Below, piece after piece: positions 16,382 to 61,445 of a stretch of DNA of 64,000 nucleotides. The position numbers were made by a program, and so were the translations under genes. The stretch comes from Verrucomicrobiia bacterium. GTDB taxonomy: Bacteria > Verrucomicrobiota > Verrucomicrobiia > Limisphaerales > UBA1319. How positions within the stretch are numbered: the stretch's first letter is position 1; each line of letters starts with the position of its first letter. Under the pieces are notes generated by a model. The model was not told the DNA's origin. It made no database searches and saw only the letters and a program-made list of their open reading frames with translations. The stretch is from NCBI GenBank assembly GCA_963664225.1, contig OY760937.1, forward strand, positions 4,448,001 through 4,512,000, given 5' to 3'.

Positions 16382-16690
16382 CAGGGGTTCGCCGAATCTG
16401 TGGACGCCGCCCGATAAAAATGAAAAAGCGGTGCTTCTTCACGGATCACCCAAACTGAACCTGTCCTGATAAGCCAACAGCAAAACATTCCTGGTTTGAA
16501 AACTACACGACAGGGAAACAGAATATGGTTGCCTTGTGACACTGGATGTGTTCTTTTCAAACAAACGACACGTGTAACAAAAGGTGTCGTTCCTATTCTT
16601 GCCGCTTGGAATACAGTCAATTGGGTTGTTCAGAACGTGAGGTGGGATTCACGGTAACTGCTTTGGAAAAAATATACTTTGGGAGTCTCC

Positions 16691-42511: not shown

Positions 42512-42658
42512 GGCATTCTCATTAGCAAATCCTGTGCCCGTTGTCATCGTGCGAATCAACGGCCCCACGGCCTATTCAGGCCATGGAGACCGCAGATCGG
42601 GATTTCCGTGCTGCCCGTGAGGGAGCTGAAAATGACTCACTAGCAGCGCCACTGGCGC

Positions 42659-48028: not shown

Positions 48029-49981
48029 ATGAAAACACCCCATCTGCTGTGCCTGGCCATCGCTGCGGCTGCCGTCAGCGCCTCGGCCACGGAATTTCAT
48101 GTCGCTCCCACAGGCAACGATGCCAGCCGGGGAACCCGGAAAGCTCCCTGGCGCACCATCCAGCACGCCGCCGATCTCGCGCAACCCGGCGATGTCATCA
48201 CCGTGCATGCGGGCGTTTATCGCGAGCGCATCAATCCACCGCGCGGCGGCACGTCCGAGCGCAAGCGCATCGTCTATCAGGCGGCCCCGGGCGAGAAGGT
48301 CGAGATCAAGGGTTCCGAAGTCGTCACGAACTGGACGAAGGTGCAGGAGGATGTCTGGAAGGTGACGCTGCCCAATTCATTTTTTGGAAACTTCAATCCC
48401 TTCAACGACCTGATCCATGGCGACTGGTTTGCGCGCCGTGACCGCGATCATCACACAGGCGCGGTCTATCTGAACGGCGAGTGGTTGATCGAATCGGCGA
48501 CGATGGACGAAGTCCTGAGGCCCCTCGGACCAATCCCGCCCTCGGTGAGCCAGGGAAACGTGGCCGCCATGCCCGATCCACGGCTCTGGTTTGCCAAGGT
48601 GGATGCGAACAACACCACCATCTGGGCGCAGTTCAAGGACGTCGATCCCAACACGCAGTTGACCGAGATCAATGTGCGTCGCACCGTTTTTTATCCCGAT
48701 CAACCCGGCCGGAATTACATCACCGTGCGCGGTTTCATCCTGCGGCAGGCCGCCACACCCTGGGCGCCGCCGACCGCCGAACAGATCGGCTTGATCGGCA
48801 CGCATTGGAGCAGGGGATGGATCATTGAGAACAACGTGGTGAGCCACTCGACGTGCTCAGGCATCTCGCTCGGCAAACACGGCGACGCACATGACAACAC
48901 CTCCGCTGACACCGCTGAGGGATACGTCAAAACCATCGAGCGCGCCCATGCCCATGCCATCGCCTGGACCCCCGTAAACATCGGCCATCACATCGTGCGC
49001 AACAACACCATCTCCCATTGCGAACAGGCCGGCATCGTCGGCAGCCTGGGGGCGATGTTCAGCACCGTCACCGGCAATGACATCTACGACATCCATTATC
49101 GGCGGCTCTTCACCGGCGCGGAAATGGCCGGCATCAAGATTCACGCGGCGATTGACACCCTCATCCAGGGTAACCATATCCATCGCACCTGCCGCGGCCT
49201 CTGGCTCGACTGGATGGCGCAGGGAACGCGCGTCACGGGCAATCTCTTCCATGACAACGCCTATGAAGACCTCTTCGTGGAAGTCAACCACGGGCCGTTC
49301 ATGGTGGATAACAACCTGTTCCTTTCCGGCACGAGCCTTACGGATATGTCCGAGGGCGGCGCCTACGTGCACAACCTGTTCACCGGCGTGATTTCGAGCA
49401 CCCAGGAGGCCGAGCGGCAAACGCCTTACCACCCCGCGCATCAGACTTCCATTGCGGGAATGAGCGACCTCAAGGGCGGCGACAATCGTTTCTATAACAA
49501 CCTTTTTGTCGGCAATGGCAACGGCCCTGGCGAAGTGGTCAAGGGTGACAAGCGCCACTACCGCGTCAATGGCTATGGACTCTGGGTCTATGACACCCGG
49601 GCCTACCCGCTCGAGACCGGCGGCAACGTCTCCCTCCATCACGCCCAGGCCTATGCCAGGGAAACCACCCCGCTCGTGCTCATGGATTACGATCCGCAGG
49701 TCAAACTGGTGGAGCAGGGCGATCAGTTTATTTTGAACCTGACCTCCTGCCCGGAGTTAAAGCAGGCCCGCACGACCGTTGTCACCACCGCATTGCTCGG
49801 CAAAGCCCGGATACCCTACCTGCCTTACGAGAGCGTGACCGGTTCCCGCTTGAAAATCAGCACCGACTACCTCGGCCGGAAACGCAGCACAACGCATCCC
49901 ACCCCCGGCCCCTTCGAGAATCCCGGAACGGAGGCGTTTGCCCCGGTGGTCTGGGGGCCACACGGAGTGGTTGCGCCGTAA
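48029..49981 (+). CDS. Beta-helix glycoside hydrolase, GH120 beta-xylosidase-like
   Basis: EFHVAPTGND...PWRTIQHAA, GVYRE, NSFFGNFNP, GAVYLNG, WAPPTAEQIG, AGIKIH, LWLDWMAQG and FVEVNHGP; signal peptide. Confidence 0.85.
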   Translation: MKTPHLLCLAIAAAAVSASATEFHVAPTGNDASRGTRKAPWRTIQHAADLAQPGDVITVHAGVYRERINPPRGGTSERKRIVYQAAPGEKVEIKGSEVVTNWTKVQEDVWKVTLPNSFFGNFNPFNDLIHGDWFARRDRDHHTGAVYLNGEWLIESATMDEVLRPLGPIPPSVSQGNVAAMPDPRLWFAKVDANNTTIWAQFKDVDPNTQLTEINVRRTVFYPDQPGRNYITVRGFILRQAATPWAPPTAEQIGLIGTHWSRGWIIENNVVSHSTCSGISLGKHGDAHDNTSADTAEGYVKTIERAHAHAIAWTPVNIGHHIVRNNTISHCEQAGIVGSLGAMFSTVTGNDIYDIHYRRLFTGAEMAGIKIHAAIDTLIQGNHIHRTCRGLWLDWMAQGTRVTGNLFHDNAYEDLFVEVNHGPFMVDNNLFLSGTSLTDMSEGGAYVHNLFTGVISSTQEAERQTPYHPAHQTSIAGMSDLKGGDNRFYNNLFVGNGNGPGEVVKGDKRHYRVNGYGLWVYDTRAYPLETGGNVSLHHAQAYARETTPLVLMDYDPQVKLVEQGDQFILNLTSCPELKQARTTVVTTALLGKARIPYLPYESVTGSRLKISTDYLGRKRSTTHPTPGPFENPGTEAFAPVVWGPHGVVAP

Positions 49982-50539
49982 GGTCGTTTGAGAATTCCGA
50001 ATAGGTTCTGCGGTGAGGGGATGTCGTGGCCTGGACTTGCGCTAGCCGGCCCACTCCAGCCCGTGCTGTCGCATTACGGCCCTACGGGTCTTGGAATCGT
50101 TGTTCCCTTTGAATTAATCCCGGCAACTCACGCTTCAGGATATCAATGGGATCAAGGCGGATCGCATTATGCTGCCGGGGTTTCCGTGCTTTGCAAGCGC
50201 CGTGCTGAAGATTCGTGGTAAACGGTGGCGTCTCATTCATCCCTTCCAGTCGCGTGTGGAGAGATGTCGGGATGCAACAATGTTTCAGGGCAAAAAAAAG
50301 TCCCCCAGCCCATCGAAGTTCTGAATGGGCGGGTGCGCCTTCTTGGAACCATGCATTTTCAGGGTTGGCGACCGTTCATCCTTTTGAGCAAAGTTTTTCA
50401 TTGCGGACAGGCGTTGTCGAAGGGAAAAGCGTCAGATTAAAGGATCAGAGCAATAACTCGCAAGTCGATGCTGCGAAGGGAGGAAACGTGGGAAGACCTC
50501 CGATGGTTTGACAGGCAACCCGCCAAGACCGGCTTTCAT

Positions 50540-50860
50540 TTAAAATCGCCACTTTTAACAACACGTTTGCATTGCCAATACAATAAGAAAACATAATGAC
50601 AATATATGCCATACTATTGGCACGATACGTGTAGCGCATCAGAAGGTGAAAAAAGTAGTCTGGCGCGCATGTATATAAATCGCATAAAAGCCTGCTATTA
50701 CTGGCCAATAGCAGCATCATGGCAGCATGACGAGAATGATGATACATACAAAATAAAAGTTTTAAAAAGCAATATAAAATAAAAAATTAAAAAACAAATA
50801 TGTCCCGTTTTGAAGCGTAATATTCCAACAATAAGACACTATAATGTTACAGTTACCATT
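50540..50860 (+). promoter_or_regulatory. AT-rich upstream region of the hydrogenase operon
   Basis: Sharp AT enrichment with A tracts in a GC-rich genome; TATAAT near 50840. Confidence 0.45.
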
Positions 50861-50988
50861 AATCGGTGTCTGGCTGAAGGCTGTCTTTGCTTATGCGTGA
50901 TATTACAAAGTCTGCTTCCAGATGACTCATTTCCGGCTCCTGTGATTGAACAACCGATAACCACCCATAACTCTTCAACACCACTGTT

Positions 50989-51960
50989 ATGAATATAACC
51001 CGACGAAGTTTTCTAAGTTACTGCACCCTGTCCGCAGCGGCGCTTGGCCTGGATGCGCACAAATTGCGTTTCCTTTCAGAGGCCCTGGCCAATCCCAGCG
51101 CGCCAACGGTCATCTGGCTCATTGGGGCCTCCTGCAACGGCTGCTCAGTGTCGTTGCTCAATCGTTTTTCCGACAAGGCCGGCGAGCCTGCGGATGTGGC
51201 GGGAGTGCTGACCGGCGCGATCAACCTGGTTTATCATCCAGTCATCATGGCGGCGGCGGGTGAAACTGCCGTGTCGGCTCTCAAGCAGGCCTATAACCGG
51301 GGCAACTATGTTCTGGTGGTCGAAGGGGCGATACCCACGGCTTTCGGCGGCTACACTTGCGGAGTCTGGAACTACAACGGCCAGGACGTCACAATGCAGC
51401 AGGCGGTCCAGGAATTGACCGCCCGGGCTCTGGCCACCGTATGCGTGGGCACCTGCGCGAGTTTCGGCGGCATTCCGGCCTCAGGTTCGAATCCCACGGC
51501 CGCAATGGGCGTGCATCAATTTACGGGTCGGCCCACCATCAATCTCTCAGGGTGTCCGGTCAATCCCGATTGGATCGTCTGGGCGGTGGTGCAATTGTTG
51601 ACGGGCACCCCGGTCACGCTGGATGCGGATGGCCGTCCCTCCGCGCTTTACACCACGAGCTTCAGCGGGGCCGCCGAAGCTGCCATCATCCATGACAAGT
51701 GTCCCCGCAATCCGGCCAACACCGGCACGCTTGAGGCGGTCAATTTCGGGGAAAACGGCCATTGTTTGAAGGCCCTGGGCTGCCGTGGACCGGCCACCAA
51801 GTCGCGCTGTCAGGCGGCCTGGAATGGAATCGGAGGCCATGTGGCCCCGCAACTGCACCCGGGCCACTGGTGCATTGAGGCCAACGCCCCCTGCCAGGGC
51901 TGCGTTGAAAAGACCTTCCCGGGATCCCAACCGTTCCACGAGCCCTACATCCCGGCCTAA
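50989..51960 (+). CDS. [NiFe]-hydrogenase small subunit, Tat-exported, group 1a-like
   Basis: TRRSFL Tat motif; SCNGC, GTCASFGG, GCP, HDKCPR, CLKALGCRGP and WCIEANAPCQGC; no C-terminal transmembrane helix. Confidence 0.93.
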   Translation: MNITRRSFLSYCTLSAAALGLDAHKLRFLSEALANPSAPTVIWLIGASCNGCSVSLLNRFSDKAGEPADVAGVLTGAINLVYHPVIMAAAGETAVSALKQAYNRGNYVLVVEGAIPTAFGGYTCGVWNYNGQDVTMQQAVQELTARALATVCVGTCASFGGIPASGSNPTAAMGVHQFTGRPTINLSGCPVNPDWIVWAVVQLLTGTPVTLDADGRPSALYTTSFSGAAEAAIIHDKCPRNPANTGTLEAVNFGENGHCLKALGCRGPATKSRCQAAWNGIGGHVAPQLHPGHWCIEANAPCQGCVEKTFPGSQPFHEPYIPA

Positions 51961-52023
51961 ACACCGCCATCGCAAATCAATTCATCCAACACCAACACAT
52001 TTAACCGCAATACAGGAATTACC

Positions 52024-53487
52024 ATGCCAGTCATTACTGCCGCAATAGACCCGATCACCCGCATCGAAGGGCACATGAAGGTCGAGGTCAAAATCGACAC
52101 CATAAACGGCGTTCAACAAGTCGTTGACGCCAGCGCCATCGGAACGCTGTTTCGCGGTTTCGAGAAACTGCTCGAGGGCCGTGCGCCCCGGGACGCCACA
52201 ATCATCACCTCCCGCATCTGTGGAGTGTGCCCCACTTCACACGCCATGGCTTCCGCGCTGGCGCTGGATAGCGCCTATGGTGTCAATGGGGACACACCCA
52301 GCAGAACGGCCTCCCGTTTGCTGAGAAATCTGGTGCATGGCGCATGCTTCCTGGAGTCGCACATCCTGCACTTCTATCTTCTATCGTTGCCGGACTATAT
52401 CTCCGGGGTGCCGATGGCGCCCTGGCTGCCCGGTTGGGAAGTGGGAAAACGATTTGATACCGCGACGGTGAATCGGTTCACAGGCAATTTCCTGGCCGCG
52501 ATCACCGCGCGTCGAAACGCCCATGAAATGGGCGCCATCTATGGCGGCAAACTGCCGCATTCCCCCGCCTATATCGGTGGTGGCGGTTTTACCTCCATTG
52601 CCTCGAACGCCAGCACCACCGCCTTTCAGGCCTATCTGACCGACCTGCTGAACTTCATTCAAACCAAATACATTCCGGATGCGGAGTTGCTGGCCAATCT
52701 CTACAGCGATTATTTTCTGCTGGGCAGGGGCTATGGAAGCCTCATGGCTTATGGCGTGTTCGAACAGGACAACTCCACCAGCCCACAACTGCTCCTGAAA
52801 CGGGGCCGTGTGGTGAACGGTACCTCCACAGTCCAGGCGGTCGATGTCTCACAAATCACGGAGCAACTTCGCTATTCCTGGTATGCCAGTGCCGATAATC
52901 AGAATCCCGCCGTCGAAGACACGGTGGCCCAATACCCGAAAGCCGAGGCCTATTCCTGGCTCAAGGCGCCCCGGTATGGTGGCGCGCCCTATGAAGTGGG
53001 TCCGCTGGCCCGCATGACCGTCAATGGCGATTACACCAACGGCGTTTCCGTGATGGACCGGCATCTGGCCCGGGCTCGTGAGGCGCTCAAGATCGCCCAG
53101 GCCATGCAGGCGTGGCTCAACGCGCTGACATCGGGCCAAAGCGCGTACACGGATGCACCCAAACCGGCGAGTGCCACCGCCATGGGTTTAACCGAGGCGC
53201 CGCGCGGGGCCTTGGGCCACTGGCTCCAGGTATCCAACAGCACGATCTCCAAATATCAGATCGTCACCCCAACCTGCTGGAATGTCTCGCCCAAGGACAG
53301 CTCCAACCAGCATGGGCCTCTGGAGCAGGCACTCATCGGCCTGCCCGTGGTCAACATCGACAAGCCCATCGAGGTATTGCGCGTGGTGCACTCATTCGAC
53401 CCGTGTCTGGACTGTGCGACGCACGTAACCCGGGCGGAGCCGGGCGCCAGGGTGTTCGTTCCAGGTGGATTGCCGGTGAAAAACTGA
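52024..53487 (+). CDS. [NiFe]-hydrogenase large subunit
   Basis: DPITRIEGH, RGFE, L1 RICGVCPTSH, YSWLKAPRY, EAPRGALGHW and L2 DPCLDCATH followed by a 20-aa cleavable tail. Confidence 0.96.
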   Translation: MPVITAAIDPITRIEGHMKVEVKIDTINGVQQVVDASAIGTLFRGFEKLLEGRAPRDATIITSRICGVCPTSHAMASALALDSAYGVNGDTPSRTASRLLRNLVHGACFLESHILHFYLLSLPDYISGVPMAPWLPGWEVGKRFDTATVNRFTGNFLAAITARRNAHEMGAIYGGKLPHSPAYIGGGGFTSIASNASTTAFQAYLTDLLNFIQTKYIPDAELLANLYSDYFLLGRGYGSLMAYGVFEQDNSTSPQLLLKRGRVVNGTSTVQAVDVSQITEQLRYSWYASADNQNPAVEDTVAQYPKAEAYSWLKAPRYGGAPYEVGPLARMTVNGDYTNGVSVMDRHLARAREALKIAQAMQAWLNALTSGQSAYTDAPKPASATAMGLTEAPRGALGHWLQVSNSTISKYQIVTPTCWNVSPKDSSNQHGPLEQALIGLPVVNIDKPIEVLRVVHSFDPCLDCATHVTRAEPGARVFVPGGLPVKN

Positions 53488-53508
53488 TTAATCACCAGGA
53501 ATCACCCT

Positions 53509-54051
53509 ATGAAGCAAGAAATGGCGAATCAGTTCATGCCTCAACACTCCCGAAAGGGGGAGCCGTCTCGTTTCCTGATTGCCGGCGTGGGAAACGAATT
53601 GCTTTGCGACGATGGCGTGGGAATCCATGCGATCCGGGAATTGCAGCGTGAACCCATTCCCGGAGTGACGATGGTGGATTTGGGCACGGCCATCCTCCAC
53701 GGTCTCGGCTTCCTGGAAGCGGCCGACCGGGTGCTGGTCATCGACGCAGCCAAAGGGGGCCAGGCTCCGGGCACCATTTACCTCTTTGAAGCGGGCGTGA
53801 ATACTCAGGCCCAACCCATGACCTCTGTCCATTCAATGGGCCTGCGCGAAGCCGCCGGCTTGTTGATGGCGGGTCAGGCTCCCCCGATGACCGTGCTGGG
53901 CGTTGAACCGGAATCCTTCAAATACTCCATGTCCCTGTCGGATCCGGTGCAGGCGGCCGTGGCACGCGTGGTTTCCCTGGCCCGGGAGACCATCACGGCA
54001 TGGCGACAGGCCGAACGAAATGAAGAAATGGCTGTTCCAGCCGAAGTATAA
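53509..54051 (+). CDS. Hydrogenase maturation protease (HyaD/HybD family)
   Basis: GVGNELLCDDGVG, DLGT, IDAA..G..PGTIY, SVHSMGL and LGVEP. Confidence 0.92.
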   Translation: MKQEMANQFMPQHSRKGEPSRFLIAGVGNELLCDDGVGIHAIRELQREPIPGVTMVDLGTAILHGLGFLEAADRVLVIDAAKGGQAPGTIYLFEAGVNTQAQPMTSVHSMGLREAAGLLMAGQAPPMTVLGVEPESFKYSMSLSDPVQAAVARVVSLARETITAWRQAERNEEMAVPAEV

Positions 54052-54095
54052 AACGAACTAAAAACCACTCCAATCCCTTTAACCCAAGACCTACT

Positions 54096-57000
54096 GTGAA
54101 AAATATTCTGAAACTGATGGGCGCCATATTACTCGGCGCAATACTGACCCAGGGGGTCAGTGCGGCAACGACCGATGGCACTGCCACCCTCAATGTGACG
54201 CTGACGGATCCTGCGGGCAATTACAACCGGCGTGTCGATGCGTTTTGGATCACCGATGGCACGGGCCGATTCATTGTGACCGTGCGCAAAGACGCGGCGT
54301 CTGAGCAGGCCTACCTCTACCAATGGAACACCGCCCGCGGGACATCCACGGTGGTGGATGGCTACAGCGGCGCCACAATCACCACCTGGACGCCGATGTC
54401 CGTGCCTTGGAATGGCCGGGACGCCAACAATGTGCTGGTGCCCGATGGCAACTACCGGTTTTACGCTGAGTTTACCGATCATAACGGACAAGGTTGGTGG
54501 ACCACCAACGGGCTAGCCTTCACCAAAGGCGCCAGCGCCTACACCACCAACTATCCCGCGCTGCAATACCTGACCGCCATGTCCGTCACTTATGCCCCGG
54601 TGGCCGTGGTGCATGACATTGCGGTGACCAGCATGACTCCCAGCACGGCTGTGGCCAACACCACCGTGGCAGTACAGGTTGGAGTGACCAATCGAACCGC
54701 CAATGCGGAAACCTTTAGCGTGATCCTGAGCAACGCCACCAGCGGGGTTGTCGTCGGCACACAGACGGTCACCTCTCTGGCTGGCAACGCGGCCTCCAGC
54801 GTAACCTTCCAATGGAATACCGCCGGTTTGCAGGGCAATTACGCCTTGCGGGCAACGGCGGGTCCTGTGACTGGCGAAACCAGCACTGCGGATAATAGCT
54901 ACACCAACACCGTTGCCGTGCAACCCCTGGTCCACGATATCGCCGTCACCAGCATGGCTCCCAATACGGCCCAGGCGAACACCACTGTTTCGGTTCAAGT
55001 TGGCGTAACGAATAAGACCGCCAATGCGGAGTCTTTTAGCGTGACACTGAGCAACGTCACCACCGCAACCCTCATCGGCACACAGACCGTCGGCGCGTTG
55101 GCGGGAAATGCAACCACAAGCGCCGCATTCGCATGGAATACCGCTGGTTTGCAGGGTAATTACGTTCTGCGTGCGGTGGCCGGGCCCGTGACTGGCGAAA
55201 CGATTACTGCGAACAACAGTTTCACGAACACTGTCGCTGTGCAGTCTGTGGCTCATGATATCGCGGTGACCAGCCTATCGCCCAGCCTGGCGCTTCCAGG
55301 CACAAACGTCACCATCACTGTAGGGGTCACCAACCTCACAATAAACACCGAAACCTTCTCGGTAGTGCTGAGCAATCTCACCTCCGCCTCAAGGATCGGC
55401 ACGCAGCAGATTACCGCTCTGGCCGGCAACAGGACTACCAGTGCAACCTTCCAGTGGAGCACCACCAACCTGTCTGGCAATTATGTCCTGCAGGCCAGCG
55501 CCGGTCCAGTGACCGGGGAAACCGCCACGACTGACAATACGCGCACCAGTACGGTGGCTGTAAGGAGCTTGATTCATGATGTGGCCATCGCCGCCATAAA
55601 CGTCCCGGCCCTGGTTTCACCCAACAGCACGGCCACTATTTCGGTGCTGGCAACCAATGCCGGGGAAACCGCCGAGTCGTTTGGGGTGCAATTATTTGAC
55701 GACACCGACGCACGCGCCATCGGCGGGACCTACCAGGTCAGCAATCTGGCAGTGGCAGCCACCCTGAACGTGCCTTTCACCTGGAGCACCACCAACAGTT
55801 CGCTCGGCGTCCACACCCTGAGGGCCGTGGCCGTCGCGGTCACTGGTGAAACCGCTCTTGCCAACAATACCAAATCCGCAGCCGTGACCGTGCAGACGGT
55901 CAACCATGATGTGGCGATTGCCACAATTCTTGCGCCAACGTTCGTGGCACCCAATGGGACCGCCACAATTTCCGTGGTGGCCACAAACCTCGGCGCGGTG
56001 GCCGAATCCTTTGGTGTTCAACTGCTCGACGACACCGATGCGCGCACCATTGGCGCCACTTACCAAGTCACCAATCTGGCCGTCGCTGCGGCAGTCAATA
56101 TACCCTTCACCTGGAAGGCCACCAACAGTTCCCTCGGCTATCACATGTTGCGCGCCGTGGCCAATCCCGTGTCTGGCGAAACGACCCTGGCCAATAACAC
56201 CAATACCGTCAGGGTTGCGGTCGCGACAGGCTTGGGCACCAACACCTACATCGCCAAAGCCAGTCCCTGGCGCTATAATGACCAGGGACTGGACCTGACA
56301 CAGACCCCGTGGCGCCTACCCGATTATTATGACGCCACCTGGAGCCTGGGTGCCGCGCCATTGGGTTACAGCGCGAACAGCAGCTTAACCAATCTCACCA
56401 CCCGGCTGAGCTGGGGACCGGTCGCGACAAACAAATACCCCACCTATTATCTGCGGCGGGAATTCTATGCGGACGTTTTGCCCGCTGCGATGACCCTTAA
56501 CATGCGATGCGTGGACGGAGCCATCCTCTACCTCAACGGTGTTGAGCTGACCCGTCAAAATATCGCCTGGTCCATGGGCTATTCGGACCTTGCGGATGCG
56601 CCGGTGACGGGAACAAACCGTTATACTTACGTCTCGACGAGCCTGGTTCCCACCAATGTGGTTCTGGGCCGAAACGTCCTGGCGGTGGAATTGCATCGGG
56701 CGGACCTGACGGGTTCAGGCCTGGCGTTTGACCTCGAAATGATTGGAACCGCGCCTCAAGCCACTGCCAAACACCTGGTGGACACGATTAGCATGACCAC
56801 CTCCGGGAGCGCGATTCTGGGCGACCAACTGCCGGTATCGGTCACCGTGACCAACCGTGGAAATGTCACAGAGTCCGTGCAAGTGTTTCTCAAGAACAAT
56901 ACGACAGGCCAGATTATTGGTTCTCAAACCATTACCAGCCTGGTTCCGGGAGGCACCACTTCGATCAATTTCGACTGGGGCACTCTGGGGGCCAATAATG

Positions 57001-59243
57001 GCGCAAACAGCCTGACGGCCTACACGGTCGTGGGTGGGGTCACCAACATGGCTGGTTCCTATACCAACACCGCACTCATCAGCGGTACGGGTTTTGTCAC
57101 CAATCCCGTCAACACAACTGCAACCATCGGGGGCCGGTGTTTCGCGATGGCAACCGCTTCCGGCCACTTGCTCGTTGGTTCCGGAGCGACACTCGAAATA
57201 TGGGATGTCAGCCATCCATCCTCACCCGTCCGGCAAGGGGCCGTGCGTTTGCCAGGATTGATTCAGGATATTGCCGCCACCGAGTCTTACGCTTACGTCG
57301 CCTGCGGCTCGGCCGGCGTCCAGTTCGTGGATCTGCATTCGTCCTCCCAGCCCATTCATCGACGCACGCTCAATACCGCCGGCAATGCCTACTCAGTGGC
57401 GGTGAGCGGAAGCTATTTGTATGTGGCTGACGGCAATGCGGGCCTGCGCATCGTCAACATTTCGAGTCCCTCCAGTCCCTCGATGGCTGGAGTGTATTAC
57501 ACCTCGGGACCGGCCCGGGCCGTTGCCGTTTCCAACAGCCGTGCCTACCTCCTCGACCAGCAGCAGGGTTTGTTGATTCTTGATGTGTCGAGCCCAAGAA
57601 CTCCGTCGCTCCTGGGTGTTTACCCCAACTTCGATGCGGGCGTGGCCCTGGCGGTTTCCAGTTCGTATGCATACCTGCTGGATGCCAATAATCACTTCGC
57701 CATCGTCAACGTCTCCACTCCGGCGAGTCCGACATTAAGCGGTTCGCTCATTTTGACGAACATGATCGGTCAGAGCATTGCCGTGAATGGTTCACGAGCT
57801 TATGTTTCGGCCGGAGTCAGCGGTTTGGTGACCATCAATGTCTCCACACCCTCGGCTCCCACGATCGTTTCAACCACTGCCATGCCGGGTGAAGCGGGGG
57901 AAATAGCGCGTTCCAGCTCGACCCTCTATGTGGCTGACGGCTTTGCCGGATTCCAGGTGTTCAATGTCTCTTCATCGTCGGCACCATCGCTCCAGGCGGA
58001 TTACCCGACTGCGTTGCGGGCAACCGATGTGGCCATCACCAACAATCTGGCGTATGTGGCTGCGGGTGAAAGCGGTTTGCGAATCTTCTCGCTGACCAAT
58101 GCCGGTTCGCCAGCGCTCCTCGGCCGGTTCACCGGAGCGGCCAACGCCCGCGCGGTGGCCGTTTCAGGTTCCCGCGCTTATGTGGGTGACGGGCCCAATG
58201 GTTTGAAAATTGTCAATGTCGCCAACCCGGCGGCCCCCACGTTATTGGGCAGCTATACGAACTCGAAGCTGGGCAGCATCCGTGATGTCGGAGTATCTGG
58301 TTCGCTGGTGGTGGTGAGCGATGGACGAACCATGCTCCTGCTGGACGCTTCCACCTCATCGAGGCCAACCCTGGTGGGCACGTATAACACACCGGCCTTC
58401 GCGTTCGCGATGACCGTAAACAACAACCGCGCCTATGTGGCTTGCGGCAAGGCCGGCCTGGTGATTCTCAATGTTTCTCGCAGTTCATTCGCCACCCTGG
58501 GCAGCCTGGTCATGCCTTCGCTGGTAAACGACGTTTCCGTTGCCGGCACCTCAGCCTATCTTTCAGGACCCGTCGGAGGCTGGTGGACCGTCGATGTTTC
58601 GACTCCGTCGGCGCCCCATCTGGTGCAGAGCGCCACCGGTCAGGGAGCCATCATGGGTCTGGCCGCTCTGGGCACCAACGTCGCAGTCCTGACCACGACC
58701 AATTATCTGGTTACAATGAACGCTTCGGTGCCATTGAGGCCGGTATCCATGAAATCCTTCGGACCGTTGGTTGGCGCGATCCGGCTGGCCGTCAGCTCGA
58801 ACTTCGTGGCCTCTGCAGAAGATGAAGCAGGCTTGGGCCTGTTTGCCGTGGCTTTTGGCGGCGGATCGAGCCGGAGCCTGGAACTGGATTCGTTCGTGGC
58901 AAAGAGTGTGGGTGCTGAAAGCGGCCCAGTGCTGCTCGGCGCATCACTGGCTGTAGCTAATCCTGCGGCGGGCACTTTAACGCCTGCCGCGCAGGTTTCG
59001 CCAGCCTCGACTGCCACGGATGCCGCATCGACGAATGCGAACTTCACACTGCACTGGCAGAGCGTGGCTGGTCAGACTTACACCGTCTATCGTTCGACAG
59101 ATCTCAAGGGTGGATTCACCCCATTGCAGACTCACATACCGGCGACGCCGCCAACGAACGTCTTTATCGATCCTGTCGCGCATGATGCGGCCTTCTATAT
59201 GATCGTGATCGAGGAAACGGGTGCCGCGCCAGCGAATCAATAA
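54096..59243 (+). CDS. Giant secreted protein: DUF2271-like flavinylation domain, CARDB-like repeats, LVIVD repeats, C-terminal domain
   Basis: GTG start and signal peptide; AFWITD..GRFIVTV...DGYSGAT...WNGRD..PDGNY; five HD(I/V)A repeats of 107-110 aa; many AYVA....GL.I.NVS.P..P LVIVD units; W.SVAGQTYTVYRSTDL...FY tail. Confidence 0.85.
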   Translation: MKNILKLMGAILLGAILTQGVSAATTDGTATLNVTLTDPAGNYNRRVDAFWITDGTGRFIVTVRKDAASEQAYLYQWNTARGTSTVVDGYSGATITTWTPMSVPWNGRDANNVLVPDGNYRFYAEFTDHNGQGWWTTNGLAFTKGASAYTTNYPALQYLTAMSVTYAPVAVVHDIAVTSMTPSTAVANTTVAVQVGVTNRTANAETFSVILSNATSGVVVGTQTVTSLAGNAASSVTFQWNTAGLQGNYALRATAGPVTGETSTADNSYTNTVAVQPLVHDIAVTSMAPNTAQANTTVSVQVGVTNKTANAESFSVTLSNVTTATLIGTQTVGALAGNATTSAAFAWNTAGLQGNYVLRAVAGPVTGETITANNSFTNTVAVQSVAHDIAVTSLSPSLALPGTNVTITVGVTNLTINTETFSVVLSNLTSASRIGTQQITALAGNRTTSATFQWSTTNLSGNYVLQASAGPVTGETATTDNTRTSTVAVRSLIHDVAIAAINVPALVSPNSTATISVLATNAGETAESFGVQLFDDTDARAIGGTYQVSNLAVAATLNVPFTWSTTNSSLGVHTLRAVAVAVTGETALANNTKSAAVTVQTVNHDVAIATILAPTFVAPNGTATISVVATNLGAVAESFGVQLLDDTDARTIGATYQVTNLAVAAAVNIPFTWKATNSSLGYHMLRAVANPVSGETTLANNTNTVRVAVATGLGTNTYIAKASPWRYNDQGLDLTQTPWRLPDYYDATWSLGAAPLGYSANSSLTNLTTRLSWGPVATNKYPTYYLRREFYADVLPAAMTLNMRCVDGAILYLNGVELTRQNIAWSMGYSDLADAPVTGTNRYTYVSTSLVPTNVVLGRNVLAVELHRADLTGSGLAFDLEMIGTAPQATAKHLVDTISMTTSGSAILGDQLPVSVTVTNRGNVTESVQVFLKNNTTGQIIGSQTITSLVPGGTTSINFDWGTLGANNGANSLTAYTVVGGVTNMAGSYTNTALISGTGFVTNPVNTTATIGGRCFAMATASGHLLVGSGATLEIWDVSHPSSPVRQGAVRLPGLIQDIAATESYAYVACGSAGVQFVDLHSSSQPIHRRTLNTAGNAYSVAVSGSYLYVADGNAGLRIVNISSPSSPSMAGVYYTSGPARAVAVSNSRAYLLDQQQGLLILDVSSPRTPSLLGVYPNFDAGVALAVSSSYAYLLDANNHFAIVNVSTPASPTLSGSLILTNMIGQSIAVNGSRAYVSAGVSGLVTINVSTPSAPTIVSTTAMPGEAGEIARSSSTLYVADGFAGFQVFNVSSSSAPSLQADYPTALRATDVAITNNLAYVAAGESGLRIFSLTNAGSPALLGRFTGAANARAVAVSGSRAYVGDGPNGLKIVNVANPAAPTLLGSYTNSKLGSIRDVGVSGSLVVVSDGRTMLLLDASTSSRPTLVGTYNTPAFAFAMTVNNNRAYVACGKAGLVILNVSRSSFATLGSLVMPSLVNDVSVAGTSAYLSGPVGGWWTVDVSTPSAPHLVQSATGQGAIMGLAALGTNVAVLTTTNYLVTMNASVPLRPVSMKSFGPLVGAIRLAVSSNFVASAEDEAGLGLFAVAFGGGSSRSLELDSFVAKSVGAESGPVLLGASLAVANPAAGTLTPAAQVSPASTATDAASTNANFTLHWQSVAGQTYTVYRSTDLKGGFTPLQTHIPATPPTNVFIDPVAHDAAFYMIVIEETGAAPANQ

Positions 59244-59280
59244 AACTTGCGACGCACGAATAACACGTTGAACCTGTAGC

Positions 59281-60396
59281 ATGCGAGCTTCAGGTCTCAA
59301 CATGAACCGGTGTACACGGAGCGCGGGACGCATGACCCGCAGCTCCGTTCAATTCATCCTCCTGCTTGGATGGGTGTCAATTCTGGCACCCATCCTTTCC
59401 CTCCCGGTACGTGGTGCCGATTTTCCGCTCATTTCCTGGCAGGGCCAGACCATGGGGTCCACGTACACCGTGAAAATCGTGGACGCCCAACTTGCCGAAC
59501 CGACAGTGGAGGCCTTAAAGCTTGAAATCGAGCGGTGCCTGAAGGAAGTCAATCGTCAGGTGTCGCATTACCAACCGGAGAGTGAATTATCACGGTTCAA
59601 CCGTTCACCTGCGAACACCCCTTTTAAAGCCTCCCCGGGTTTCTTCCGCGTCCTCCAGCATAGCCTCGAATTGAACCGTCAATCGCAAGGCGCCTTTGAT
59701 CCCACGCTGGGACCACTCATCGACCTGTGGGGATTTGGCGCGAAGACTAACAACAAGGCAGTGCCGACCGACGCGCAAATCTCGGAGGCGAAGAAACTCT
59801 ACGGTTGCCAGCACCTCTCTCTGACCGCCAACGGGGAAATCCTCAAAGACATTCCGGAACTGCGCCTAAACCTCAGTTCCGCCGGCAAAGGTTTTGGCAC
59901 CGATGAAATGGCGCGCGTTCTTCGAGCACATGGCTTGACGAACATTTACGTCTCCATCAGTGGCGATGTCTTCACCCAGGGACACAATGCCCAAGGCAAA
60001 AAATGGCAGGTGGGCATTTCAGCTCCAATGCCCGATTGGAGTCCCGGAGATCCACTGGTCACGGTGCTCTCTGTATCGGGACAGGCCGTTTCCACATCGG
60101 GCGATTATCAGAAATATTTGATCGACGCCCAGGGACGGCGTCTTGGCCATATCTTCGATCCGAAAACCGGCTGGCCTGTTCAGCATAATCTGGCGGGCGT
60201 CTCGGTGGTGGCCGGGGATTGCATGACTTCCAGTTCCCTGGCCACGACACTCTTTGTGCTTGGGCCGGATGAAGGACTTCGATTCATTGAATCCCGGACC
60301 AATGCCGCCGCACTATTCGTGGTCCAGGATGCCGATCATAAATTCCAATCGATCCCCAGTTCTCGGTTTAAGGTCATGACCGGATATCAGCCGTGA
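59281..60396 (+). CDS. apbE: FAD:protein FMN transferase
   Basis: TMGS, SELSRFN, GAFDPTLGPL..LWGF, KG..TD, WQVGI, STSGDY and HIFDPKTG; start may be at 59332. Confidence 0.92.
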   Translation: MRASGLNMNRCTRSAGRMTRSSVQFILLLGWVSILAPILSLPVRGADFPLISWQGQTMGSTYTVKIVDAQLAEPTVEALKLEIERCLKEVNRQVSHYQPESELSRFNRSPANTPFKASPGFFRVLQHSLELNRQSQGAFDPTLGPLIDLWGFGAKTNNKAVPTDAQISEAKKLYGCQHLSLTANGEILKDIPELRLNLSSAGKGFGTDEMARVLRAHGLTNIYVSISGDVFTQGHNAQGKKWQVGISAPMPDWSPGDPLVTVLSVSGQAVSTSGDYQKYLIDAQGRRLGHIFDPKTGWPVQHNLAGVSVVAGDCMTSSSLATTLFVLGPDEGLRFIESRTNAAALFVVQDADHKFQSIPSSRFKVMTGYQP

Positions 60397-60479
60397 AGTT
60401 TGGAACTGCGTTGGCCACCTGATTCACATTCTGATTCAACTTGTGCGCATCGGGAGGATGAGGCACGTTTTAGGAAAGC

Positions 60480-61445
60480 ATGAATCGCCGTGAATTTATC
60501 CAAAGCGTTGCGGCTGGACTGGCCGTTGCACCCCTGCTGACCTCTGCCGCACCCGTTGGCATCCCCACACGCTCGCTGGGCCGCACCGGCATCAAAGTTC
60601 CCATTATTGGCTTCGGCTCCGGGAGCCGTTTCCTGATGTATCAAAAGGACGAAGACGCCTGGGAGGCGCTCAACCGGGCCATCGACCTGGGCATAACTTA
60701 CATCGACACCGCGCATGCCTATGGGAATGGCAAGAGCGAGGAGCGCGTTGGACATGTGATGGCCACGCGGCGCAAGGAAGTGGTTCTGGCCACGAAAATT
60801 CCCGGGCGCACGGCGGACCAGGCCCGGCGGCAAATTGAGCTGAGCCTGAAGCGTCTTCAAACCGACCATCTGGATGTGCTGCATATTCACGACCTGAAAG
60901 GCGATAAAGACATTGAGGCCATTGAGGCGCGCGGCGGTGTGCTCGAGGCGTTGCATGAGGCCCGTGATCAGAAAATCACCCGCGCCATTGGGATCACCTG
61001 TCACGCCAATCCCGCCGGTCTGAAGACCATGCTCGAACGCCATGATTTCGATTGCACACAGATGGCCTTGAATGCGGGATTGGCCCGCATGGCGGATCTT
61101 CCGGGCGGCATGAAGGCGACACTGGCCGGGGAGGGAAGTTTCGAGCGACTCGCCTTGCCGGTGGCCACGCGAAAGCACATGGGTGTCATCGCCATGAAAG
61201 TATTCGGTCAGGAGCAACTCCTGGGGGCGGCATCGGTGGAAAACCTGCTGGCGTATGTGCTTTCCCTGCCGATCAGCCTTGCGAGCCTGGGCATGCCCCG
61301 ATTGGAGCATATCGAGAAAAACGCCTCCCTTGCATGCACCAGCAAACGCATGTCCGGCAGCCAGCGTCGGAAGCTTTCGGAAACCATCGAATCAGAGAAA
61401 AAGCTGGCCATGATGCGCTTCTTTGAGGCCCATCAGGATTGCTGA
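60480..61445 (+). CDS. Tat-exported aldo/keto reductase
   Basis: NRREFI Tat motif; LGRTG, IDTAHAYG..SE, LATK, SLKRLQTDHLD and IAMKVFG. Confidence 0.9.
   Translation: MNRREFIQSVAAGLAVAPLLTSAAPVGIPTRSLGRTGIKVPIIGFGSGSRFLMYQKDEDAWEALNRAIDLGITYIDTAHAYGNGKSEERVGHVMATRRKEVVLATKIPGRTADQARRQIELSLKRLQTDHLDVLHIHDLKGDKDIEAIEARGGVLEALHEARDQKITRAIGITCHANPAGLKTMLERHDFDCTQMALNAGLARMADLPGGMKATLAGEGSFERLALPVATRKHMGVIAMKVFGQEQLLGAASVENLLAYVLSLPISLASLGMPRLEHIEKNASLACTSKRMSGSQRRKLSETIESEKKLAMMRFFEAHQDC

What the first reader, a model, noticed from the sequence alone, without database searches (positions are those of the whole stretch)
50989..60396. Candidate new system: exported [NiFe]-hydrogenase co-encoded with a flavinylated giant surface protein and ApbE
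Seen: five co-oriented genes with gaps of only 63, 21, 44 and 37-88 bp, behind one AT-rich upstream region. They encode a Tat small subunit, large subunit, maturation protease, a 1715-aa secreted protein with DGYSGAT, and ApbE. No cytochrome b, HybA/HybB or c-type cytochrome gene is in the cluster, and the small subunit has no membrane anchor. Established: ApbE attaches FMN to Thr/Ser in [S/T]GA[S/T] motifs, DUF2271 domains are known ApbE substrates, and group 1 hydrogenases normally pass electrons through cytochrome b or c partners. Inference: the FMN-bearing surface protein takes the place of the usual redox partner and links H2 oxidation or evolution to extracytoplasmic or intercellular electron transfer. 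I do not know of this combination being described.
Basis: partly seen in the sequence, partly recalled or inferred. Interest (0 to 1): 0.92.

Follow-up and report, generated by a model that had tools for sequence, protein, structure and literature searches.

The report
Hydrogenase with giant flavin-carrying partner
A Verrucomicrobial gene cluster joins an exported nickel-iron hydrogenase to a 1,715-residue secreted protein whose first domain looks built to carry covalently attached flavin, a pairing kept in related bacteria and sitting where relatives carry a haem partner.

Summary
Five co-oriented genes (50989-60396) encode a Tat-signal [NiFe]-hydrogenase small subunit, its large subunit, a maturation protease, a 1,715-aa secreted protein and ApbE. 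They are separated by gaps of 63, 21, 44 and 37 bp and sit behind an AT-rich leader.

The giant protein's N-terminal domain (residues 26-168) is a divergent DUF2271 relative. Its flavinylation threonine (T94 in DGYSGAT) is invariant in all 13 copies aligned.

Among 80 related hydrogenase loci, the domain follows the protease gene in 11. These 11, plus one locus that keeps only the LVIVD part, form one 100/100-supported hydrogenase clade in Verrucomicrobiota, Lentisphaerota and Kiritimatiellota. No other neighbour is conserved, and ApbE follows in 5 of the 7 loci with enough flank.

Outside this clade the same family carries c-type haem motifs instead: fused to the small-subunit tail in 16 loci, or at the N-terminus of a secreted protein in the same gene position in 7. 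The clade's small subunits also have insertions around the distal-cluster ligands.

Best reading: the flavin domain replaces a cytochrome as the hydrogenase's electron acceptor. Electron transfer, flavinylation, surface location and the final acceptor are not shown. I found no description in print. I rate it a new variant of a known kind, of high interest.

The parts
50540..50988 (+). AT-rich leader with a sigma-70-like promoter match at 50555-50584
   Evidence: GC is 0.378 in 50500-50999. The sequence was read. The promoter-like site matches 10 of 12 positions. No Rfam family matched at E<=1.
50989..51960 (+). [NiFe]-hydrogenase small subunit, 323 aa. Twin-arginine signal TRRSFL at nt 50998-51015. 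No C-terminal anchor and no haem motif.
   Evidence: Pfam and NCBIfam. The best solved relative is the D. vulgaris Hildenborough [NiFeSe] small subunit 2wpn_A (1.8e-47). His/Cys columns H235, C238, C259, C265, C295, C302 and C305 are invariant in 75 sequences, and C274 is conserved in at least 90%.
51640..51690 (+). Clade-specific insertion in the small subunit (residues 218-234), just before the distal-cluster His235-x2-Cys238
   Evidence: The P217..H235 segment is 16-17 residues in 12 of 13 clade sequences (10 in L004). In other sequences it is 8 residues in 59 of 62 and 11 in 3 of 62.
51811..51870 (+). Second clade-specific insertion in the small subunit (residues 275-294), between C274 and C295
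   Evidence: The segment is 13-23 residues in 13 of 13 clade sequences and 11 residues in 62 of 62 others.
52024..53487 (+). [NiFe]-hydrogenase large subunit, 487 aa. Ni-binding RICGVCPTSH and DPCLDCATH, with Cys rather than Sec. The C-terminal extension after His467 (nt 53425-53484) would be removed by the protease.
   Evidence: C66, C69, C461 and C464 invariant in 25 sequences. The best solved relative is the [NiFeSe] large subunit 5jsu_B (5.9e-110). Cleavage after the His is established knowledge, not tested here.
53509..54051 (+). Hydrogenase maturation endopeptidase (HycI/HyaD family), 180 aa
   Evidence: Pfam HycI 3.3e-17. TIGR00072 scores 121.7 bits against a cut-off of 47.45.
54096..54170 (+). 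Sec-type signal peptide of the giant protein (VKNILKLMGAILLGAILTQGVSAAT)
   Evidence: Read from the translation. The public protein set starts at Met8.
54171..54599 (+). N-terminal DUF2271-like beta-sandwich domain (residues 26-168). Predicted flavinylation motif DGYSGAT at nt 54357-54377; T94 codon at 54375-54377.
   Evidence: All 13 aligned copies match DUF2271 at E<=1, best 4.7e-10. D63 and T69 of the domain (D88 and T94 of the protein) are invariant. The AF2 model has pLDDT 91.8.
54612..56240 (+). Five tandem CARDB (Ig-like) repeats, about 108 aa each
   Evidence: Pfam CARDB with 5 stretches. The repeated HD[IV]A[VI] starts are visible in the translation.
56241..57200 (+). Middle domain of unknown family (about residues 716-893), then a sixth CARDB (nt 56799-57023)
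   Evidence: Pfam finds only CARDB in 56190-57200. The Atlas search gave only unnamed clusters.
57201..58700 (+). LVIVD repeats, modelled as tandem beta-propellers (46 strands)
   Evidence: Pfam LVIVD. The AF2 model has pLDDT 89.2. Foldseek gives only generic tandem-propeller matches.
58701..59243 (+). C-terminal region of the giant protein, with no family assigned; conserved in 9 related loci
   Evidence: No Pfam match at E<=1. tblastn hits in 9 loci. Atlas neighbours are Verrucomicrobial propeller proteins, a lead only.
59281..60396 (+). ApbE-family FAD:protein FMN transferase, 371 aa, with a hydrophobic N-terminal segment (export signal or anchor)
   Evidence: Pfam ApbE 3.3e-82 covering profile positions 1-266 of 266. 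NCBIfam PRK10461 scores 229 bits, below its equivalog cut-off of 498. Translation.

Best explanation
The five genes form one module, probably one transcript.

(1) The small and large subunits make a soluble [NiFe] hydrogenase of the [NiFeSe]-like kind, but with Cys instead of Sec. The protease matures it in the cytoplasm and the small subunit's Tat signal carries it across the membrane. This step rests on homology.

(2) The 1,715-aa protein is exported by its own Sec signal. ApbE, which also has an N-terminal export or anchor segment, attaches FMN by a phosphoester bond to Thr94 of the N-terminal DUF2271-like domain. This step is inferred from the motif, the family and the neighbouring gene.

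(3) That FMN domain takes electrons from the distal [4Fe-4S] cluster of the small subunit. It plays the role that a c-type cytochrome plays for related hydrogenases. This step is inferred from conserved synteny and from the haem modules in the same place in relatives.

(4) The rest of the protein is six Ig-like CARDB domains, an unassigned domain, tandem beta-propellers and a C-terminal domain. It holds or positions the flavin domain and perhaps the enzyme. The final acceptor is unknown. This step is speculative.
For: Gene order and spacing are as described.

Conservation and phylogeny:
- Of the 80 best loci around relatives of the large subunit, the N-terminal domain lies directly after the protease gene in 11 and nowhere else in any locus (tblastn; profile search of all ORFs of at least 60 aa).
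- Those 11, the window and L008 form one clade with 100/100 support in a 77-row tree (L014, L019, L045 and L076 were dropped as fragments).
- Across the 12 clade loci the only conserved neighbours are the small subunit, large subunit, protease and giant protein (12 of 12). ApbE is the fifth, present in 5 of the 7 loci with at least 1.2 kb of downstream flank.

The flavin domain:
- Thr94 and Asp88 are invariant in 13 of 13 domain copies.
- All 13 copies match Pfam DUF2271 at E<=1, best 4.7e-10.
- A profile of the domain finds 2,702 cluster representatives at E<=0.001. In the best 150, 133 of 166 full-length domain copies keep D-x-x-[STA]-[GSTA]-[AS]-[ST], and 98 keep the strict [ST]GA[ST].
- DUF2271 with this motif was shown to be flavinylated by its neighbouring ApbE (PMC8238504, passages read).

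Comparative argument:
- In non-clade loci, 16 small subunits carry 1, 2 or 4 CxxCH motifs in a C-terminal tail.
- Seven loci encode, right after the protease, a secreted protein with a single N-terminal CxxCH followed by PKD, TSP3 or MopE-type domains. Two of these seven (L042, L051) are among the four sister-clade loci.
- Clade small subunits have tails of 0-4 residues and no CxxCH.
- Clade small subunits carry insertions on both sides of the distal-cluster ligands.

One metagenomic ORF (P0152) runs from the protease straight into signal peptide, flavin domain and CARDB. This is another instance of the adjacency.
Against: - No experiment or model here shows contact or electron transfer.
- The window's own domain is below Pfam's DUF2271 cut-off (18.3 against 27.3 bits).
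- L008 keeps the hydrogenase and protease with a 654-aa LVIVD protein that has no flavin domain. The propeller part, not the flavin, is therefore the most constant companion.
- L004 and L010 have about 5 kb of downstream flank and no ApbE.
- One copy, in the second module of L009, has a degenerate motif (DGVATST), although the Thr column is kept.
- The small-subunit insertions are present in L008 and shortest in L004, which has two flavin domains. They mark the clade, not the flavin domain.
- Shorter relatives of the flavin domain end in T9SS sorting domains, a dockerin, a PEP-CTERM-like tail or SLH. The family is therefore often displayed outside the cell, whereas a Tat-exported hydrogenase of a diderm should be periplasmic. 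The two may not share a compartment.
- No route from the flavin to the membrane or to an acceptor was found.
- A cytochrome partner elsewhere in the genome cannot be excluded.
Confidence: 0.5

Rival explanations
1. Scaffold reading. The giant protein's propellers and Ig-like stalk dock or tether the otherwise anchorless hydrogenase in the envelope. The enzyme's real electron acceptor is a soluble cytochrome or a membrane complex encoded elsewhere, and the flavin domain is an accessory with another job.
For: - L008 keeps an LVIVD-only protein, without the flavin domain, after the hydrogenase genes.
- The small-subunit insertions track the clade, L008 included, rather than the flavin domain.
- The LVIVD region models as tandem beta-propellers, a common protein-binding fold.
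- An Armatimonadota locus (L013) has an LVIVD protein about 5 kb from its hydrogenase.
Against: - The flavin domain is present in 11 of 12 clade loci, with its Thr invariant.
- ApbE is part of the module in 5 of 7 informative loci.
- In relatives, the same gene position holds proteins whose only obvious cofactor site is an N-terminal haem motif. That points to a redox role for the N-terminal module, not only a structural one.
Confidence: 0.2
2. Neighbours only. The giant flavoprotein and ApbE form a self-standing extracytoplasmic reductase, for instance for iron or another external oxidant as proposed for other DUF2271 systems. It is inherited and perhaps co-regulated with the hydrogenase, but takes its electrons from another source.
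For: - DUF2271 with ApbE occurs widely without hydrogenases, mostly with PepSY-like membrane proteins (PMC8238504, passages read).
- The domain profile finds 2,702 representatives, many of them short proteins with surface-sorting tails.
- No membrane electron donor is encoded in this module, so a donor elsewhere is needed under any reading except the hydrogenase one.
Against: - Across 12 loci from three phyla nothing else is conserved around these genes. The giant gene always follows the protease gene directly, and once lies in the same ORF.
- No PepSY-like, NapH-like or other transmembrane electron-transfer gene is in the module, which leaves the hydrogenase as the only encoded electron source.
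Confidence: 0.15
3. Reverse direction. The flavin domain feeds electrons to the hydrogenase, which evolves H2 outside the cytoplasm as an electron sink for fermentative PVC bacteria.
For: The closest solved relatives are [NiFeSe] hydrogenases, which are known from the literature (recalled, not read here) for high H2-production activity. Many PVC members are fermenters (recalled).
Against: FMN is a weak reductant for proton reduction at ordinary H2 pressures (established thermodynamics). No donor to the flavin is encoded in the module. Exported group 1 enzymes are generally uptake enzymes (established knowledge).
Confidence: 0.07

Closest known systems
Periplasmic [NiFeSe] hydrogenase HysAB of Desulfovibrio vulgaris Hildenborough (PDB 2wpn, 5jsu) and Desulfomicrobium baculatum (1cc1, 4kl8), with their tetrahaem cytochrome c3 partner
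   Same: These are the best solved relatives of both subunits (large 5.9e-110, small 1.8e-47). Shared features are the short large subunit, the Tat-signal small subunit without a membrane anchor, and a fourth Cys at the medial cluster (WC aligned with the [NiFeSe] WC, where a standard [NiFe] enzyme has WP). A dedicated maturation protease gene follows the subunits.
   Different: Cys replaces selenocysteine (DPCLDCATH). Scores fall below the NCBIfam cut-offs for the [NiFeSe] models. There are insertions around the distal-cluster ligands. No cytochrome c3 gene is in the cluster, and a flavin-domain protein plus ApbE follow instead. That c3 is the partner of the Desulfovibrio enzymes is recalled knowledge.
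DUF2271 / ApbE flavinylation systems (Meheust et al. 2021, eLife, PMC8238504)
   Same: A small exported beta-sandwich domain carries a D-x-x-[S/T]-G-A-[S/T] site and is encoded next to an extracytoplasmic ApbE. All 13 copies match PF10029, and relatives score well above its cut-off (for example 86.8 bits for P0125).
   Different: Described DUF2271 proteins are mostly single-domain proteins of about 135 aa in PepSY-like/DUF4198 clusters, thought to act in iron reduction. Here the domain heads a 1,400-1,900-aa CARDB-LVIVD protein and is linked to a hydrogenase. The word 'hydrogenase' occurs 0 times in that paper's main text. Its cluster table (Supplementary file 1) was not held, so I could not check it.
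Haem-carrying partners within the same hydrogenase family (found here)
   Same: The position and layout are the same. A redox cofactor site is either fused to the small-subunit tail (16 loci) or placed at the N-terminus of a secreted multi-domain protein encoded right after the protease (7 loci: L026, L042, L047, L049, L051, L062, L070).
   Different: The cofactor is c-type haem (CxxCH) rather than covalently bound FMN, so no ApbE is needed. The downstream domains are PKD, TSP3 or MopE-type rather than CARDB and LVIVD.
Flavin-based extracellular electron transfer of Listeria (PplA, flavinylated by the ApbE homologue FmnB)
   Same: An ApbE-flavinylated protein outside the membrane acts as the last protein-bound carrier. 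This comparison is recalled knowledge and is a lead only.
   Different: PplA uses FMN_bind domains, is a small lipoprotein and is fed from the quinone pool through EetA/EetB and Ndh2. Here the domain is DUF2271-like and the encoded donor is a hydrogenase.

Membership tests
Exported group 1 [NiFe] hydrogenase (group 1a-like) | Large-subunit Ni-binding motifs: N-terminal RxCGxCxxxH and C-terminal DPCxxCxxH | tested here: met
   RICGVCPTSH and DPCLDCATH are present. C66, C69, C461 and C464 are invariant in 25 relatives.
Exported group 1 [NiFe] hydrogenase (group 1a-like) | Twin-arginine signal on the small subunit | tested here: met
   TRRSFL is at residues 4-9. R5, R6 and F8 are invariant in 75 sequences.
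Exported group 1 [NiFe] hydrogenase (group 1a-like) | Ligands for three Fe-S clusters in the small subunit | tested here: met
   The His/Cys columns align with 2wpn_A. H235, C238, C259, C265, C295, C302 and C305 are invariant, and C274 is conserved in at least 90% of 75 sequences.
Exported group 1 [NiFe] hydrogenase (group 1a-like) | Formal subgroup assignment by HydDB | not tested
   HydDB is not among the tools. The placement rests on the nearest solved structures and on co-clustering with Desulfosporosinus, Geobacter and Clostridium enzymes.
[NiFeSe] hydrogenase (HysAB) | Selenocysteine in the C-terminal Ni-binding motif | tested here: not met
   The frame reads DPCLDCATH with Cys and has no in-frame TGA. 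NCBIfam NF033181 scores 536.7 against a cut-off of 600, and NF045518 scores 471.5 against 780.
DUF2271 (PF10029), ApbE substrate domain | Match to the Pfam model above its gathering score | tested here: inconclusive
   The window copy scores 18.3 bits against a cut-off of 27.3 (E 0.0019). All 13 aligned copies match at E<=1, best 4.7e-10. Relatives found with the domain profile score 25-88 bits.
DUF2271 (PF10029), ApbE substrate domain | Conserved [S/T]GA[S/T] flavinylation motif with the acceptor Thr/Ser | tested here: met
   SGAT is at residues 91-94. The Asp and the acceptor Thr are invariant in 13 of 13 copies and the Ala is kept in 12 of 13. The motif lies inside the stretch matched to the Pfam model.
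DUF2271 (PF10029), ApbE substrate domain | Exported, and encoded near an extracytoplasmic ApbE | tested here: met
   The signal peptide is visible in the translation. ApbE is the next gene, and also in 5 of 7 related loci with enough flank.
DUF2271 (PF10029), ApbE substrate domain | Covalent FMN actually attached | not testable with these tools
   This needs co-expression followed by in-gel fluorescence or mass spectrometry.
ApbE FAD:protein FMN transferase (PF02424) | Full-length match to the family model | tested here: met
   276.4 bits, covering profile positions 1-266 of 266. PRK10461 scores 229 bits, below its equivalog cut-off of 498, so it is not an orthologue of the E. coli enzyme by that rule.
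HycI/HyaD hydrogenase maturation endopeptidase | Match above the curated cut-off | tested here: met
   TIGR00072 scores 121.7 bits against a cut-off of 47.45. Pfam HycI scores 63 bits against a cut-off of 23.

The most novel reading that the evidence does not exclude
A cytochrome-free wire for H2. In a PVC clade the hydrogenase hands electrons to a single covalently bound FMN at the tip of a protein of about 1,700 aa, built of Ig-like domains and propellers. That protein reaches the cell surface, as its shorter relatives with T9SS, PEP-CTERM, dockerin or SLH tails do. H2 oxidation would then be coupled directly to extracellular acceptors or partner cells. Variants with two to four flavin domains (L004, P0125, P0127) would form short flavin relays.
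Probability: 0.15. Interest if true: 0.92.

Novelty: new variant of a known kind. Interest (0 to 1): 0.76.

Why it matters
Exported [NiFe] hydrogenases are textbook partners of cytochromes b or c. A conserved clade whose operon-encoded partner is an ApbE-flavinylated domain would add a new class of hydrogenase electron acceptor. It would also give ApbE-dependent flavinylation a new physiological donor, H2.

It would offer a handle on how abundant but poorly studied Verrucomicrobiota, Lentisphaerota and Kiritimatiellota use H2 in soils, sediments and guts. The comparison across the family suggests a further point: the acceptor module of this hydrogenase lineage has been swapped repeatedly, appearing as a haem fused to the small subunit, an N-terminal monohaem on a secreted protein, or a flavin domain.

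The central claim is directly testable with two recombinant proteins and H2.

Tried and rejected
- Complex prediction (small subunit 35-323, large subunit 1-467, three 4Fe-4S clusters, flavin domain): no verdict. ipSAE was 0.00 in both runs and the controls were not run. It is not used as evidence either way.
- Foldseek of the flavin-domain model against the PDB: no match at E<=0.001. The best matches are FlgD Ig-like domains at E of about 0.02, so no solved homologue places the flavin site.
- Foldseek of the LVIVD model: only generic tandem propellers (WD40, YWTD, PorZ). No functional lead.
- ESM Atlas on residues 705-895 and 1560-1715: unnamed clusters, or other Verrucomicrobial propeller proteins. 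Leads only.
- Rfam on 49900-61000 at E<=1: nothing.
- Terminator scan: 10 sites against 11.2 expected from shuffles, so it says nothing about operon boundaries.
- Supplement search of PMC8238504 for PF00374, hydrogenase, PF08309 and PF07705: only 3 small text files (5,406 characters) are held, and the cluster table is not among them.
- Literature searches. None found a paper linking a hydrogenase to DUF2271 or ApbE. The term sets were: DUF2271+ApbE; flavinylation+hydrogenase+ApbE; Verrucomicrobia+periplasmic+NiFe+hydrogenase+'group 1a'; Kiritimatiellales+hydrogenase+periplasmic; LVIVD+hydrogenase; DUF2271 alone (15 papers, 10 listed); flavinylated+hydrogenase+periplasmic.
- Considered and rejected: that the giant ORF is a chance open frame. 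It has Pfam domains along its length and 111 database relatives.
- Considered and rejected: that the extra SGAT, TSAS and TSAT strings at residues 429, 448 and 1029 are further flavin sites. They lie in CARDB and LVIVD repeats rich in S, T and A, outside any DUF2271-like domain.

Full report
**What is in the window**

Their gaps are 63, 21, 44 and 37 bp. Upstream lies a stretch of about 450 bp with GC 0.378, against 0.54-0.62 around it. It holds one good sigma-70-like match at 50555-50584. No Rfam family matches the region.

Pfam and NCBIfam name the products as follows:
- a [NiFe]-hydrogenase small subunit;
- a large subunit;
- a HycI/HyaD-type maturation endopeptidase;
- a protein with CARDB and LVIVD repeats;
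- ApbE, matched over the whole family model at 3.3e-82.

The small subunit starts with a twin-arginine motif (TRRSFL) and ends at residue 323 with no hydrophobic tail. The large subunit has both Ni-binding motifs, with Cys rather than Sec in the second (DPCLDCATH). The giant protein has a Sec-type signal peptide, DGYSGAT at residues 88-94, only four Cys and no CxxCH. No cytochrome, HybA/HybB or hyp gene lies in the cluster or anywhere in the 64-kb window. The rest of the window looks like a polysaccharide-degrading Verrucomicrobium.

**What kind of hydrogenase it is**

The closest solved structures are the periplasmic [NiFeSe] hydrogenases of Desulfovibrio vulgaris Hildenborough and Desulfomicrobium baculatum (large subunit 5.9e-110, small subunit 1.8e-47). 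The small subunit shares their fourth Cys at the medial cluster. All columns aligned with cluster ligands are conserved across 75 relatives.

It is nevertheless a Cys enzyme and falls below the NCBIfam cut-offs for the [NiFeSe] models. I call it a group-1a-like exported [NiFe] hydrogenase. HydDB could not be run. The nearest database relatives of the large subunit are from Verrucomicrobiota, then Kiritimatiellales, at 83-61% identity.

**The N-terminal domain of the giant protein**

On its own, the window's copy (residues 26-168) matches Pfam DUF2271 only weakly: 18.3 bits against a cut-off of 27.3, E 0.0019. It also matches FlgD_ig weakly.

I took 12 further copies from related loci and aligned all 13. 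Every one matches DUF2271 at E<=1, with a best E-value of 4.7e-10. The Asp and the acceptor Thr of the flavinylation motif are invariant, and the Ala is kept in 12 of 13. The variants are SGAT, TGAT, TSAT, SSAT and, in one copy, a degenerate ATST.

With this alignment AlphaFold2 gives a confident beta-sandwich with one helix (pLDDT 91.8). No solved structure matches it at E<=0.001.

A profile of the 13 copies finds 2,702 cluster representatives at E<=0.001 among 1.84 billion proteins. In the best 150, 133 of 166 full-length domain copies keep the relaxed motif and 98 keep the strict [ST]GA[ST]. Many of these relatives pass Pfam's DUF2271 cut-off.

Méheust et al. showed that a DUF2271 protein with this motif is flavinylated by its neighbouring ApbE, and that changing the Thr abolishes it (PMC8238504, passages read). 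So the domain is a divergent DUF2271 and a very plausible ApbE substrate. Flavinylation itself is not shown here.

**Is the linkage conserved?**

I scanned one genome per species (GTDB set) with an alignment of the large subunit and kept the best 80 of 592 confirmed loci, each with 10 kb on either side.

- The flavin domain lies directly after the protease gene in 11 loci: L001-L007, L009-L011 and L023. It occurs nowhere else in any of the 80, by tblastn or by a profile search of every ORF of at least 60 aa.
- L008 (Kiritimatiellales) has, in the same position, a 654-aa LVIVD protein with the same C-terminal region but no flavin domain.
- L014 is cut by its contig end.
- In a maximum-likelihood tree of 77 large subunits (four fragments dropped), the window, the 11 loci and L008 form one clade with 100/100 support. 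The clade spans Verrucomicrobiota, Lentisphaerota and Kiritimatiellota.
- Across the 12 clade loci the only conserved neighbours are the small subunit, large subunit, protease and giant protein. The upstream genes all differ.
- ApbE follows the giant gene in L001, L002, L003, L006 and L023. That is 5 of the 7 loci with at least 1.2 kb of downstream flank. L004 and L010 lack it, and four loci are truncated.
- L009 holds two copies of the whole module.
- One metagenomic ORF (P0152) runs from the protease through a signal peptide into the flavin domain and CARDB.

**What relatives carry in the same place**

This comparison bears most directly on function.

- In the non-clade loci, 16 small subunits have a C-terminal tail with one, two or four CxxCH motifs.
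- Seven loci encode, right after the protease, a secreted protein with a single CxxCH a few dozen residues behind its signal peptide, followed by PKD, TSP3 or MopE-type domains (L026, L042, L047, L049, L051, L062, L070).
- Two of those seven, L042 and L051, are among the four loci of the sister clade.
- Two other loci have multihaem cytochromes upstream (L025, L039).
- Clade small subunits have tails of 0-4 residues and no haem motif.

So this hydrogenase lineage repeatedly has its acceptor module fused or adjacent. The common layout is a redox site at the N-terminus of a secreted multi-domain protein. The PVC clade has that layout with a flavin domain instead of a haem.

Clade small subunits also have longer segments on both sides of the distal-cluster ligands:
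- P217..H235 is 16-17 residues in 12 of 13 clade sequences, against 8 in 59 of 62 others.
- C274..C295 is 13-23 residues in 13 of 13, against 11 in 62 of 62 others.

The distal cluster is where c3 docks on the Desulfovibrio enzymes (recalled knowledge). These insertions are also present in L008 and are shortest in L004. They mark the clade rather than the flavin domain.

**The rest of the giant protein**

After the flavin domain come five tandem CARDB repeats, an unassigned domain of about 180 aa, a sixth CARDB, LVIVD repeats and a C-terminal region conserved in nine loci. The LVIVD repeats model as tandem beta-propellers (pLDDT 89.2, 46 strands).

Fold and Atlas searches give only generic propeller matches. 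Of the 47 proteins of at least 1,000 aa among the best 150 domain hits, 30 share the whole CARDB-LVIVD-C-terminal architecture. All 111 database relatives of residues 20-420 come from MAGs or metagenomes, and those that carry a name are called hypothetical or CARDB proteins.

Shorter relatives of the flavin domain end in T9SS sorting domains, a dockerin, a PEP-CTERM-like tail or SLH repeats. The domain family is therefore often displayed outside the cell. For this protein, surface display is not shown. A Tat-exported hydrogenase in a diderm should be periplasmic, so whether the two meet is an open point.

**How it most likely works**

I give about 0.5 to the following chain of steps.
1. The hydrogenase is matured by the protease and exported by Tat. 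This rests on homology.
2. ApbE puts FMN on Thr94 of the exported giant protein. This is inferred, and I think it likely.
3. The FMN domain takes electrons from the distal cluster in place of a cytochrome. This is inferred from synteny, phylogeny and the haem modules in relatives.
4. The Ig-like stalk and the propellers position the flavin and perhaps bind the enzyme, and the final acceptor is unknown. This is speculative.

The main rivals are these:
- The giant protein is chiefly a scaffold and the true acceptor lies elsewhere (0.2). L008 and the distribution of the insertions favour this.
- The flavoprotein and ApbE form an independent reductase that merely travels with the hydrogenase (0.15).
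- Electrons flow the other way, towards H2 evolution (0.07).

A complex prediction gave no verdict and is not used.

**Novelty**

Seven full-text searches found no paper linking a hydrogenase with DUF2271 or ApbE.
- The key flavinylation survey does not mention hydrogenase in its main text. Its cluster table could not be read.
- The 2024 follow-up preprint has 0 occurrences of 'hydrogenase' (passages read).
- The Effluviviacota paper mentions ApbE only for Rnf and Nqr (passages read).
- The single paper holding both 'LVIVD' and 'hydrogenase' concerns a Methanosarcina surface protein (passage read).

Each part is a known kind. The combination, and a flavinylated domain as the operon-encoded partner of an exported [NiFe] hydrogenase, appears undescribed. 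I rate it a new variant of a known kind, with interest 0.76.

**What stayed unchecked**
- The rest of this genome and of the related genomes, including any cytochrome c3 or other ApbE substrates.
- Metagenome and viral contig collections, which were closed.
- HydDB classification.
- Transcription, flavinylation, localisation and electron transfer.

Noticed in passing
L009:1-4428 (- strand) and L009:8962-17103 (+ strand): One Lentisphaeraceae contig carries two full copies of the module (small subunit, large subunit, protease, giant protein) in divergent orientation. The second copy's flavin motif is degenerate (DGVATST).
   Followed up: partly
L004:11934-16568; proteins P0125, P0126, P0127, P0129: Some giant proteins carry two to four DUF2271-like domains, most with intact motifs. 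For example, P0125 has three copies with DA[IV]TGAT plus CARDB and LVIVD. These are multi-flavin variants of the same architecture.
   Followed up: partly
L037, L038, L065, L070 and 12 further loci (small-subunit C-terminal tails): In 16 of the 80 loci the hydrogenase small subunit has a C-terminal tail with 1, 2 or 4 CxxCH motifs, which looks like a cytochrome c fused to the small subunit. Ten others have long tails of 100-420 aa without haem motifs (L028, L039, L044, L046, L047, L049, L053, L054, L068, L071).
   Followed up: partly
L026, L042, L047, L049, L051, L062, L070 (gene after the protease): These are secreted proteins with a single N-terminal CxxCH followed by PKD, TSP3 or MopE-type domains, a recurrent and apparently undescribed class of hydrogenase-linked monohaem proteins.
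   Followed up: partly
L008:1023-2354: Two tandem DUF2202 (ferritin-like) genes lie just upstream of the hydrogenase in the Kiritimatiellales locus that lacks the flavin domain.
   Followed up: no
window 54096 versus 54117: The public protein set starts the giant protein at Met8 (1708 aa). The GTG start 7 codons upstream adds two Lys residues and gives a more typical signal peptide, and relatives extend upstream too.
   Followed up: partly
protein P0152: A single 580-aa ORF from a metagenome joins the maturation protease, a signal-peptide-like segment, the flavin domain and CARDB. It could be a read-through, a lost stop codon or a true fusion.
   Followed up: partly
window 44169-47294 (- strand): This 1041-aa protein has PLD-like nuclease, ResIII helicase, Helicase_C and DUF3427 domains. 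It is probably a restriction or defence-type helicase-nuclease and unrelated to the finding.
   Followed up: no
window 16679-22096 and 38765-42568: Two other very large secreted proteins are encoded here: 1805 aa with Laminin_G_3 and Ig domains, and 1267 aa with LTD, Laminin_G_3 and CotH. The window also holds glycoside-hydrolase-like genes, several two-component regulators and an ice-binding-like protein (27199-28164).
   Followed up: no
L013:16878-21119 (- strand): An Armatimonadota locus outside the clade has a 1413-aa LVIVD protein about 5 kb from its hydrogenase, beyond the hyp genes and on the opposite strand. It may be coincidence, or a looser form of the same association.
   Followed up: no
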